DNA of 42,545 bases, from positions 1 to 42,545 of the IMG/VR virus record IMGVR_UViG_3300037067_027672; one strand, 5' to 3'. Position 1 is the first letter of the stretch. Each line of letters begins with the position of its first letter. The position numbers and the translations under genes are program-made. This document shows, piece after piece, positions 1-6,117 of the stretch. The notes below the pieces were generated by a model. That model saw only the letters and a list, made by a program, of their open reading frames with translations, searched no databases and was not told the DNA's origin. The stretch is from a virus.

Positions 1-174
1 GATGCTTATACCGATCCAGATACCGGATTGCCTTTGTTGGAATATATGGATCCATTCACCGGCAAGAAGACCTACACCTACCTGAATCCAGACACCCAGC
101 ATCCTATATTCACCTACTACAGCTATCCGGATGATAAAACGGGAAGGACGGCATATTCCTATATCGATTCGTAA
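1..174 (+). CDS. 3' end of a truncated protein with Y-x-D/N-P-x-T-G repeats
   Basis: Frame 1 is open from the window start: DAYTDPDTGLPLLEYMDPFTGKKTYTYLNPDTQHPIFTYYSYPDDKTGRTAYSYIDS*, stop TAA at 172-174. Confidence 0.55.
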   Translation, partial: DAYTDPDTGLPLLEYMDPFTGKKTYTYLNPDTQHPIFTYYSYPDDKTGRTAYSYIDS

Positions 175-215: not shown

Positions 216-710
216 ATGGCCCGGAAGGATTATCACGGAAGAATAGGAGAGGTTTATTTCGACTCCGTAGAACAGAAAAACAAGTTTTTTGGATTGGCTG
301 CAGCGAGGGGCTGCACTTTCTCGCGATATGCAATCAATATTTTGGAGGAAGCGGTAGGCCATGAGCAGCCAGCTATCCCTGCAACGGACTATGGACACCT
401 GGAGGACGAGAACAGGGAGCTGAGGCGGAGGATCGCGGAACTGTCGCGAGAGATCGAAACGATCAACGCAGAGCTGCAACGCCAGCGATACGCCGCTTTC
501 AATGAGGACACGGGCATCAATATCCAGTTTGATCCCGATCTCCTGGCAATCCTGCAGGCCGGACCGATCCACAGCCATGCTCTCTTGACAGCTTTGAAGA
601 TCAATCCCTCGGACACAACGCGAATGAGGGCTCTAGCTCAGCAGTTGGAGATTCTGGAAAGCACCAGGTTCATAGCTAAATCCAAGAACGGCTGGAGATG
701 GTTAAAGTGA
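216..710 (+). CDS. Integrase-associated regulator (RHH-like N-terminus, coiled coil, C-terminal winged-helix-like)
   Basis: Central coiled coil LEDENRELRRRIAELSREIETINAELQRQR; overlaps the integrase start by 13 nt; TATA-like elements at ~185-215. Confidence 0.6.
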   Translation: MARKDYHGRIGEVYFDSVEQKNKFFGLAAARGCTFSRYAINILEEAVGHEQPAIPATDYGHLEDENRELRRRIAELSREIETINAELQRQRYAAFNEDTGINIQFDPDLLAILQAGPIHSHALLTALKINPSDTTRMRALAQQLEILESTRFIAKSKNGWRWLK

Positions 711-1615
711 CCCTGCTGGAGGCTTGGGCCACTGATGCAGAGATTCGCGGGATGAGCCCCAGGACTATCCGGAATTATAGGTATCGCATAGCCAATTTTA
801 TGAGGTTCCTGGATGGCAAGGACATATTTGCAGTCAATAAAATAGATATCAGAGATTTTATAGAAGAGGCCCGAAAAAAGGGGCATTATACCGGATCAAT
901 CGCGTTCAGCCTCGCTAGTATAAGCAATTTCTATGATTGGGCCATTTTCGAGGAATTGACCGATAAGAATCCGGTGAAAGAGGTACGCTCGCGGTATTTG
1001 CATAGCTATAAGAAAGACAACGAGAAGCGAGACAGGCAGTTGATCAGCATAAAACAGGCAGCCAATATGATCGACTATATGGTCGATATCCGAGACAAGG
1101 CCATGATGACCGTCCTCTTCAAGACGGGCGTAAGGAGGAATGAGTTATTGAGCATGGAAGTCGATGATATCAATTGGAATGATTGGAGCATCACCCTGAA
1201 GCCAACCGCGAAACGTTCCAATAGAGTAGTCTTTTTCGACCAAGAGGCGGCCACTATACTGTCTCGTTGGCTAGCAGTTCGTGAAGAACGGAACAGAAAT
1301 GGAATCAAGGCATTATGGATATCAACGATTGGCCGCCCCGCAACAGAAAAAACAGTTATCTATATGATCAGTAAGGCGGGCATTGCCCTTGGTGTCCATA
1401 ACCCCAAATCCTCCAAGCTGGAAGAACATTTTAGCGCCCATTGCTGCCGTCATTGGTTCACCACCCACCTTCGCAGATCTGGGATGCCCCGTGAATTCAT
1501 CCAGGAGTTGAGGGGCGATGTTCGCAAAGAGGCAATCGATATCTATGATCACATTGATAGAGAAGAGCTGAGGAGAAGTTACCTGAGCCATATACCAAAA
1601 CTAGGCATAGCGTAA
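698..1615 (+). CDS. int: Tyrosine recombinase/integrase (archaeal XerA-like)
   Basis: Catalytic motifs KTGVRRNELL (R), HCCRHWF (HxxR) and ELRGD...IYDH (Y); N-terminal SAM-like domain (SPRTIRNYRYRIANF). Confidence 0.95.
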   Translation: MVKVTLLEAWATDAEIRGMSPRTIRNYRYRIANFMRFLDGKDIFAVNKIDIRDFIEEARKKGHYTGSIAFSLASISNFYDWAIFEELTDKNPVKEVRSRYLHSYKKDNEKRDRQLISIKQAANMIDYMVDIRDKAMMTVLFKTGVRRNELLSMEVDDINWNDWSITLKPTAKRSNRVVFFDQEAATILSRWLAVREERNRNGIKALWISTIGRPATEKTVIYMISKAGIALGVHNPKSSKLEEHFSAHCCRHWFTTHLRRSGMPREFIQELRGDVRKEAIDIYDHIDREELRRSYLSHIPKLGIA

Positions 1616-1900
1616 GCTACCCCTCCCCTTAAGGAGAGGGGCTTTCAGCAGCCCTGAGCAGATCTGTTTCAGAATCAGAGATCTACCCGGACCTCCAGGC
1701 CAGCCTACATGCGCCGACGAATCGCAGAGGTCCCCGTCTTGCGGGAACATTGGCCTCAGATCTGCCAAAGACGGCTTCAAATCGTGTTTCAGCCGTTCCC
1801 TTTCGGGCAAGAGTCTGGCAGAGCCGTACAGGATCAGCATCGAGCGGTTTACCGCGAGGGTGCCTAAGATGCCCAAGTACATACAGGAGATGGTTTGACA
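1612..1900 (+). ncRNA. Putative omega-RNA/HEARO-like scaffold (orphan)
   Basis: ~290 nt between the left-end hairpin and a GGAGA...ATG stub; several stems (CAGATCTG twice, CCC-TTTC-GGG, GCGG-TTTA-CCGC); position matches the omega-RNA of IscB elements; the 3' boundary is approximate. Confidence 0.5.
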
Positions 1901-1998
1901 TGTTAAATAGTTATGCAGAGCACCGCGAAAGTAAACTGGGAAGTGTACCCAATTCCTCCCACCCCCTAAAGGAGGCGGGCCTCCTTGGTGATTTACCG
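1612..1998 (+). mobile_element. Non-autonomous IS200/IS605-superfamily (IscB-type) miniature element
   Basis: Left end GTAAGCTACCCCTCCCCTTAAGGAGAGGGGC hairpin; right end TTCCTCCCACCCCCTAAAGGAGGCGGGCCTCCTTGG; no TSD; removing 1612-1998 restores the integrase end GGC ATA GCG TGA. Confidence 0.75.
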
Positions 1999-2041
1999 GT
2001 GACTACTCCCCTGCCTACGAAAATGGGATACAACCTGAGTT

Positions 2042-2106
2042 CCTGCAAATTAAGTCTGATAGCTGCAAAGAAAGTCACTCATTTTAGGGACTTTACATGC
2101 AAAGCC
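2042..2106 (+). repeat. Orphan copy of the transposon right end (direct repeat of 5900-5964)
   Basis: 65-bp alignment with 5900-5964 has 6 mismatches; the last 18 bp are a perfect inverted repeat of 2122-2139. Confidence 0.85.
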
Positions 2107-2324
2107 ACTAGGACTAGGACCGGCTTTGCATGTAAAGTCGGTTCTGCAACTAAAGTCTCGATCTTGCAACTAAAGTGACAGATATGTTCAGTAGATTGAT
2201 TATATTTCTAAGTAAGCAATTTTGGTTACTGAGGTCATACTTATGTATAAATCTATGGATGATAGTTGCATGTTGAGTTAGTTAGTCGCGTTTAAATAAT
2301 AAAACAATTAAAAATTTTGGCATA

Positions 2325-5755: not shown

Positions 5756-5964
5756 GGTCCAGAAATCCCAACTCAGTTGGTAAATACTTTGCGCCCCCGG
5801 TTCAATCCGTCCTGGCTAAAGAGAACTTCACCCAATTGTTTTGCAATCCATGCAGATGATGGCAACCAAATTTATCTCAAATTACTGATATTAGTACGCC
5901 CTGCAAATTAAGTCTGATGTCTGCAAAGGAAGTCCCTCATTTTAGGGACTTTCTATGCAAAGCC

Positions 5965-6041
5965 GGTAGGCAGAAACGTGGGCAAAGGACTCCGCTTTCA
6001 TCCCCACCCTGAAGGATGGGGACTTCCCGCTTCGTCCTTCG
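5965..6041 (+). mobile_element. Right-end remnant of a second IS200/IS605 (IscB/TnpB-type) element
   Basis: Hairpin CCCCACCCTGAAGGATGGGG (6002-6021) read as AFIPTLKDGDFPLRP, the kind of peptide that overlaps IscB-type right ends. Confidence 0.55.
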
Positions 6042-6117
6042 CAATCCTACAAGTTAACCAGATGCAGGATGTCGCATTAGCTAAGCCCAAATAAAAAATA
6101 CAGAAAAGATGTACTAG

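What the first reader, a model, noticed from the sequence alone, without database searches (positions are those of the whole stretch)
1590..1900. Virus-borne orphan omega-RNA whose guide would be the integrase's own 3' end
The element keeps ~290 nt of structured sequence but only a stub of ORF (MLNSYAEH...NSSHPLKEAGLL). In IscB loci the guide is the flanking DNA just 5' of the scaffold; here that is ...CATATACCAAAACTAGGCATAGC. Integrase read-through transcription would supply the RNA. Inference: with a host IscB in trans, this RNA would cut element-free sibling viruses (target followed by GTGA) and spare this genome, where the target is followed by GTAA. That would be RNA-guided superinfection exclusion or homing between archaeal viruses.
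Basis: inference. Interest (0 to 1): 0.8.

Follow-up and report, generated by a model that had tools for sequence, protein, structure and literature searches.

The report
Gene-less mini-transposon with TnpB-type guide RNA
This is one of dozens of copies of a protein-free jumping element in the methane-making archaeon Methanothrix and its viruses; it carries a folded RNA that most likely guides a borrowed TnpB nuclease to cut the element's own empty landing site, a known selfish trick rather than a dedicated viral immunity system.

Summary
A real 387-bp protein-free IS200/IS605 element (1612-1998) sits in the integrase stop codon of a Methanothrix soehngenii provirus. The exact empty site (target then GTGA) exists. 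The family has 40 distinct left flanks beside viral and cellular genes, none with a long ORF. Its ~270-nt interior covaries as RNA (29 pairs with double changes), but on the MINUS strand: interior G-U 90 versus A-C 4 cells, a TATA-like box upstream, and the terminal pseudoknot motif of TnpB omega-RNAs (42/20000 shuffles). So the guide is probably 3' and antisense to the integrase end, made from the element's own promoter, with a TCAC TnpB as partner, not IscB by read-through. An intact-looking TCAC TnpB with the same left end occurs in related viruses. No coding parent was found, and without the transposon end the scaffold has no significant match to any known RNA, so the partner is inferred. 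Cutting empty siblings is standard transposon homing that every copy would do; five of six element-free integrase records read have GTAA and should escape a TCAC-specific nuclease. Gene-less omega-RNA elements are published, and this scan noted similar ones in other genomes. Expression and cleavage untested.

The parts
1612..1998 (-). Protein-free IS200/IS605 element (PATE-like), 387 bp, top strand = minus
   Evidence: Boundaries from empty allele L104 and from 40 distinct left flanks / 29 right flanks
1999..2002 (-). Target tetranucleotide / TAM TCAC (GTGA on +), outside the left end
   Evidence: GTGA directly follows in 23 of 29 distinct right flanks as cut by my pattern (3 more show it 1-2 nt off because of small end variants), GTAA in 2; background GTGA frequency 0.0028 per position
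1951..1998 (-). Left end with subterminal hairpin (TnpA site); same type as the left end of TnpB element P0016
   Evidence: blastn 80% over 50 nt to L017:1908-1954
1902..1909 (-). TATA-like box TATTTAAC, about 22-29 nt upstream of the first RNA helix (candidate archaeal promoter)
   Evidence: AT-rich box at the same spacing in three divergent subfamilies; inference, not measured
1612..1880 (-). About 269-nt structured RNA scaffold: ~175-nt 5' multi-helix domain plus TnpB-like 3' core
   Evidence: 99.4% of cells paired, 29 pairs with double changes, 0/500 shuffles; interior G-U 90 vs A-C 4
1702..1708 (-). 5' arm of the predicted pseudoknot (GTAGGCT), pairing with the last 7 nt of the element (1612-1618)
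   Evidence: Invariant in 34/34; the same pairing covaries across tnpB loci; motif in 42/20000 shuffles
1612..1645 (-). Right end: subterminal hairpin and terminal TTAC (transposon-encoded motif, GTAA on +)
   Evidence: Covarying hairpin, 6 of 9 pairs with double changes; nhmmer match to tnpB right ends E 3.5e-5
1592..1611 (-). Predicted 3' guide, antisense to the last codons of the integrase
   Evidence: Flank immediately past the right end; matches the empty allele next to TCAC; inference
698..1615 (+). Tyrosine integrase, 305 aa; stop codon supplied by the element
   Evidence: Pfam PF00589 E 1e-25; the same protein is encoded by filled, empty-GTGA and GTAA alleles

Best explanation
A non-autonomous, gene-less IS200/IS605 element of Methanothrix soehngenii and its viruses. 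A Y1 transposase encoded elsewhere moves it as single-stranded DNA into sites 3' of TCAC (specificity and mobility shown by flanks; the transposase is inferred). A promoter inside the left end drives a ~270-nt RNA on the minus strand that runs out through the right end into flanking DNA (structure and strand shown by covariation; transcription inferred). The 3' ~100 nt fold like a TnpB omega-RNA core (terminal pseudoknot, right-end hairpin) and the next 16-20 nt, antisense to the integrase end, act as guide. A TCAC-specific TnpB from a full-length element binds it in trans (inferred; best candidate the P0016 family) and cuts the empty allele, where TCAC abuts the target, but not the filled allele, where TTAC does; repair from the filled copy restores or spreads the element. 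The integrase site is one of many, tolerated because the element's TAA replaces the TGA stop. Any cutting of an element-free sibling virus is a by-product of homing.
For: Empty allele exact. 72 metagenome stretches plus viral copies, none with a long ORF; 40 left flanks; cellular neighbours such as ABC transporters, a GTPase and acylphosphatase. Covariation. Strand: interior G-U 90 vs A-C 4 with the right-end hairpin excluded; consensus energy -175 vs -155. A pattern built from this element and the ORF-less L140 retrieved the 3' end of a real tnpB gene in the same orientation (L159); terminal 6-nt pairing holds with five different hexamer pairs in tnpB loci. TnpB P0016: same left-end type, TCAC at all insertion sites where the end was read, RuvC D171/E253/D337 present; it lies 1.5 kb from a family copy in virus L017, and virus contig L180 carries it 135 bp from the empty site of copy L052. 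Precedent: PATEs encoding omega-RNAs (bioRxiv 10.1101/2023.03.14.532601); standalone omega-RNAs acting in trans (PMC10691335); pseudoknot and 3' guide of ISDra2 omega-RNA (PMC10097598).
Against: With the right end removed, the interior shows no significant similarity to tnpB omega-RNAs or to L140 (pairwise z 0.7-1.7; model R2 best relevant hit E 0.88; nhmmer none), so the TnpB link rests on a short motif, strand and geometry. The pseudoknot is invariant within the family, so it is not itself covarying there. P0016's own scaffold is much shorter and differs in sequence. No coding parent, no TnpA and no TnpB in this virus record. Many double changes come from one three-sequence subfamily, so cells overcount events.
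Confidence: 0.62

Rival explanations
1. One reading: plus-strand IscB/IsrB omega-RNA with a 5' guide, made by integrase read-through and used by a host IscB or IsrB.
For: IscB and TnpB elements share ends in opposite gene orientation, and GT|GA-targeting IscB elements exist in Methanosarcina lacustris (PMC4810608). IsrB uses a ~284-nt RNA and an NTGA TAM (PMC9581776). A GGAG followed by an ATG lies on the plus strand after the conserved block in several subfamilies. HEARO missed 1 of 3 control loci, and I had no IsrB RNA model.
Against: Plus-strand folding needs A-C at pairs that are G-U in 7-34 copies, including the helix that would be the guide adaptor. No HEARO hit. Stub has no IscB similarity. 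Only HNH-domain-length IscB matches in 1.02 Mb (redundant) of fetched, mostly Methanothrix loci, which did hold several tnpB genes; this is not a whole-genome search.
Confidence: 0.1
2. The RNA is a distinct large scaffold whose partner is not a standard short-scaffold TnpB (for example a large TnpB with a non-overlapping ~290-nt RNA, or another protein), or whose 5' domain has its own activity.
For: The ~175-nt 5' domain covaries (helices 1, 2, 5, 7), is not a tnpB coding remnant and matches nothing in Rfam. 579-aa TnpBs with the same left-end type carry ~290-nt downstream non-coding regions. An ORF-less element of similar size and similar hairpin order exists in an unrelated high-GC phage (L140).
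Against: No significant similarity to the RNAs of the 579-aa TnpBs or to the L140 5' part (z 0.9). The ISDra2 RNA also has a long dispensable 5' region.
Confidence: 0.18
3. The element was recruited by the provirus as an RNA-guided superinfection-exclusion device aimed at the integrase.
For: The filled allele is common among records of this integrase and a cleavable empty allele exists; several family copies sit in virus records.
Against: 40 unrelated left flanks; in 8 of 40 the element's TAA closes an upstream frame of 80 aa or more, so stop-codon insertion is not special. Five of six element-free integrase records have GTAA and should escape. The integrase also heads non-viral islands. Both ends are intact, so it is not immobilised.
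Confidence: 0.05
4. A purely DNA-level miniature; interior pairing reflects single-stranded DNA folding or decayed inheritance and no RNA functions.
For: The top strand of these elements is the minus strand, so G-T wobble in ssDNA gives the same asymmetry; single-copy folding is not exceptional.
Against: Long-range covarying helices and invariant loops far from the TnpA hairpins; interior kept while three different left-end types are swapped; promoter-like box at the right spacing.
Confidence: 0.05

Closest known systems
PATE-like protein-less IS200/IS605 elements encoding omega-RNAs (Geobacillus stearothermophilus; Meers et al., bioRxiv 10.1101/2023.03.14.532601)
   Same: No ORF, both subterminal hairpins, TAM outside the left end and a near-identical motif inside the right end, guide from flanking DNA, needs TnpA and TnpB in trans; homing by cutting the empty site.
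   Different: Archaeal host and viruses; TCAC/TTAC motifs; ~270-nt scaffold with a covarying non-coding 5' domain; no sequence-matched coding parent found.
Standalone omega-RNAs acting in trans with IscB (as summarised in PMC10691335)
   Same: Mobilised, effector-less guide-RNA loci in many copies.
   Different: Here the evidence points to the opposite strand and a 3' guide; HEARO model not hit.
TnpB omega-RNA (ISDra2 structure, PMC10097598; P0016/L159 family found here)
   Same: 3' guide, terminal pseudoknot with an upstream arm about 100 nt away, right-end hairpin, long 5' region.
   Different: Does not overlap a coding sequence; two extra hairpins inserted before the pseudoknot arm; interior not alignable to these RNAs above chance.
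ISC (IscB) transposons with GT|GA targets in Methanosarcina lacustris (PMC4810608) and IsrB omega-RNA (PMC9581776)
   Same: Same kind of ends, compatible target tetranucleotide, similar RNA length.
   Different: Their RNA is read from the right end inwards with a 5' guide and precedes an ORF; neither feature is supported here.

Membership tests
PATE / non-autonomous IS200/IS605 element | Subterminal hairpins at both ends, no terminal inverted repeats | tested here: met
   Right-end hairpin covaries; left end homologous to a tnpB element's left end
PATE / non-autonomous IS200/IS605 element | Insertion next to a fixed 4-5 nt motif without target duplication | tested here: met
   GTGA in 23 of 29 right flanks; clean empty sites L104 and L180
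PATE / non-autonomous IS200/IS605 element | No protein gene; multiple dispersed copies | tested here: met
PATE / non-autonomous IS200/IS605 element | Mobilised by a Y1 TnpA in trans | not testable with these tools
   No TnpA in five virus records; host genome not searchable
TnpB omega-RNA | RNA on the top strand ending at the right end, guide 3' | tested here: met
   Strand asymmetry G-U 90 vs A-C 4; by covariation, not by transcript data
TnpB omega-RNA | Terminal pseudoknot with an upstream arm | tested here: met
   7-bp pairing, family rule met, 42/20000 shuffles; invariant within the family
TnpB omega-RNA | Scaffold homologous to that of a cognate tnpB locus | tested here: inconclusive
   Motif match to L159 tnpB tails; not significant once the right end is removed
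TnpB omega-RNA | Expressed, bound by TnpB, directs TAM-dependent cleavage | not testable with these tools
IscB omega-RNA (HEARO) | Match to the HEARO covariance model upstream of an ORF position | tested here: not met
   No hit at E<=1; control 2 of 3
IscB omega-RNA (HEARO) | RNA read from the right end inward with a 5' guide and guide-adaptor helix | tested here: not met
   Requires A-C mismatches, one invariant in the adaptor-like helix
IscB omega-RNA (HEARO) | iscB or isrB available in the host | tested here: inconclusive
   None in 1.02 Mb of redundant fetched loci; whole genome not searchable
IsrB omega-RNA | Match to an IsrB RNA model | not testable with these tools
   No such model on hand

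The most novel reading that the evidence does not exclude
A lineage of protein-free IS200/IS605 elements whose ~270-nt RNA is a purpose-built stand-alone guide scaffold: a TnpB-like 3' core plus a conserved 5' domain not derived from coding sequence, with an unidentified effector or its own activity, retargeted by right-end deletions and used in competition between Methanothrix viruses that carry either the mini-element or the nuclease.
Probability: 0.15. Interest if true: 0.6.

Novelty: new member of a known kind. Interest (0 to 1): 0.3.

Why it matters
The kind of element is published, so the conceptual gain is small. What is useful: an apparently undescribed, mobile ~270-nt RNA family in a dominant biogas methanogen, with natural covariation, exact filled and empty alleles and a candidate partner nuclease in the same viruses. 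That makes in-trans use of orphan omega-RNAs by TnpB, and homing between archaeal viruses, directly testable. The covarying 5' domain is unexplained.

Tried and rejected
Rfam on both strands: nothing. blastn against plasmids and phages: nothing useful. Stub and all other frames against NCBIfam and a home-made TnpB profile: nothing. Search for longer proteins holding the minus-strand frame: only 164-211 aa read-through calls without TnpB domains. RNA model and motif over 61 and 401 bacterial genomes reachable from G001: only G001's own virus-like contig. Two RNA-model searches failed internally and were rerun on fewer sources. Model R1 hits to L140 (E 0.0024) and L159 (E 0.00044) vanished when the right end was removed (model R2), so I do not count them as proof of interior homology. 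IStron (group I intron) rejected: no Rfam hit and the top strand ends in C, not G (the requirement is from my own knowledge). Group II intron domain V and hammerhead look-alike motifs rejected by eye: not conserved in the divergent subfamily. A HEARO-like motif order on the minus strand is lost in that subfamily and was treated as chance. The sigma-70 scan is not informative for an archaeon.

Full report
Context. The window is a provirus record. Genes next to the same integrase in other assemblies are named from Methanothrix soehngenii. Comparison with a chromosome lacking the island puts the host junction at about window 168, so the 305-aa tyrosine integrase (698-1615) is near the left edge of the integrated element. 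The same integrase also heads islands with transposase, methylase and restriction genes (L099, L128).

The element. Exact look-up of the integrase gave three alleles at its stop codon: filled; empty, with the integrase end joined straight to GTGA at window 1999 (L104); and a third allele continuing with GTAA into unrelated sequence (L099, L101, L128, L134, L135). The insertion is therefore 1612-1998, 387 bp, without target duplication, and it swaps a TGA stop for TAA. A core motif found 72 metagenome stretches and further viral copies. There are 40 distinct left flanks and 29 right flanks; 23 right flanks start with GTGA, 2 with GTAA, and 3 more show GTGA one or two bases off. No copy holds a long ORF. 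Neighbours include cellular genes and about a quarter of the sites are in virus records. In 8 of 40 sites the element's TAA closes an upstream frame of at least 80 aa. This is a mobile, gene-less IS200/IS605 element with a TCAC target on the minus strand.

The RNA and its strand. One copy folds no better than shuffles, but 34 distinct copies support a structure of 80 pairs: 99.4% of cells paired, 29 pairs with changes on both sides, no shuffle reaching this, and slid controls far lower. Caveat: many double changes come from one three-member subfamily, and the structure was derived from these sequences. Complementarity alone cannot tell the strand; wobble can. In pairs lying inside helices, right-end hairpin excluded, the minus strand has 90 G-U cells and 4 A-C cells, the latter all singletons (all pairs 198 vs 5). 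Conservation starts at the first helix (1880), and an AT-rich box lies about 22-30 nt upstream in three divergent subfamilies, as expected of an archaeal promoter (established knowledge; not measured).

TnpB or IscB. IscB and TnpB elements share ends with opposite gene orientation, and GT|GA-targeting IscB elements are known in Methanosarcina lacustris (PMC4810608), so ends and target cannot decide. Rfam HEARO does not hit either strand though it found 2 of 3 control iscB loci. A pattern made from this element and ORF-less L140 retrieved the 3' end of a real tnpB gene in the minus-strand orientation (L159). In that TnpB family the last six bases pair with a hexamer about 70-100 nt upstream, followed by GCC, with five different hexamer pairs across loci; this element has the same arrangement 97 nt from its end, seen in 42 of 20000 shuffles. 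A terminal pseudoknot and 3' guide are the defining architecture of the ISDra2 omega-RNA (PMC10097598). L140 is clearly a TnpB-type scaffold (z 7.8 to the L159 tail). However, once the right end is removed, this element's interior is not significantly similar to L140 or to tnpB tails by alignment, nucleotide profile or covariance model. The TnpB assignment is thus an inference from strand, promoter, motif and geometry.

Candidate partner. TnpB P0016 (370 aa; NF040570 above cut-off; RuvC acidic residues present) has the same left-end type, follows TCAC at each site where the end was read, lies 1.5 kb from a family copy in virus L017, and in contig L180 lies 135 bp from the empty site occupied by copy L052 in a sibling that lacks the tnpB element. 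Its own scaffold is shorter and different, so compatibility is unproven. The window's virus encodes no TnpB, IscB or TnpA. No full-length iscB was seen in 1.02 Mb of redundant fetched loci that did contain tnpB genes; the host genome itself could not be searched.

Mechanism. Shown: boundaries, target motif, mobility, lack of ORF, covarying structure, strand bias, empty allele. Inferred: transcription from the internal promoter, a guide antisense to the integrase end (1592-1611), binding by a TCAC TnpB in trans, cleavage of the empty allele and copy-back. The filled allele presents TTAC instead of TCAC, the usual TAM/TEM difference of these elements (bioRxiv 10.1101/2023.03.14.532601).

Superinfection exclusion. 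Every copy of the family would target its own empty site, so nothing singles out the integrase. Five of six element-free integrase records read carry GTAA and should escape a TCAC-specific nuclease (similar places not shown by the tool were not read). Homing onto a co-infecting empty sibling is plausible, but it is the known selfish function.

Known systems. Gene-less PATEs that encode omega-RNAs for TnpB in trans are described, as are standalone omega-RNAs working in trans (PMC10691335). Earlier notes of this scan list similar minis in other genomes (unchecked leads). I found no paper on this family in Methanothrix. What remains unexplained is the covarying ~175-nt 5' domain, which is not a tnpB coding remnant and has no Rfam match.

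Verdict.

Noticed in passing
L016 vs L019; L045/L046 vs L063; L043 vs L095: Pairs of copies (two with the same right flank, one with no right flank available) in which the right end is joined to a different, more distant GTGA site with loss of the DNA between (about 69 bp in L016/L019). Looks like transposase-mediated adjacent deletion that swaps the guide without a new insertion.
   Followed up: partly
L052:225-630 and L180:1145-2493: Sibling contigs: one has the mini-element and lacks the tnpB element, the other has tnpB P0016 and the empty mini-element site 135 bp away. A natural test pair for in-trans cutting.
   Followed up: partly
L140:10850-11195: ORF-less element of about 350 bp in a complete high-GC phage without tnpB, same left-end type, clear TnpB-type 3' scaffold and a long 5' region; resemblance to this family is suggestive but not significant.
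   Followed up: partly
L139:10273-12012 and L141, L145-L157: 579-aa TnpB-like proteins (below the NCBIfam cut-off) in many phage records, with the same left-end type and a ~290-nt non-coding region after the stop, likely a large non-overlapping omega-RNA.
   Followed up: partly
window 2042-2112 and 5900-5970, also 2122-2180: 71-bp direct repeat (89%) built from short inverted motifs, flanking a protease and a DDE transposase; related motifs follow the integrase in other alleles with different cargo (L002, L099, L101).
   Followed up: no
window 5990-6045: Orphan IS200/IS605-type hairpin end; its outer flank also appears beside copies L055 and L064.
   Followed up: no
window 1-168: Host junction (attL) lies at about position 168, inside a 199-aa host gene that is cut to 161 aa; the site hosts either this provirus or non-viral islands with the same integrase.
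   Followed up: partly
L067:1607-2144: A copy with the window's right flank but an unrelated left flank: recombination between copies, a large adjacent deletion or an assembly chimera.
   Followed up: partly
L018 (G001 contig 13): The only species-genome hit is a small contig in a Syntrophaceae bin that is 85% identical to Methanothrix-type virus L017; probably mis-binned.
   Followed up: partly
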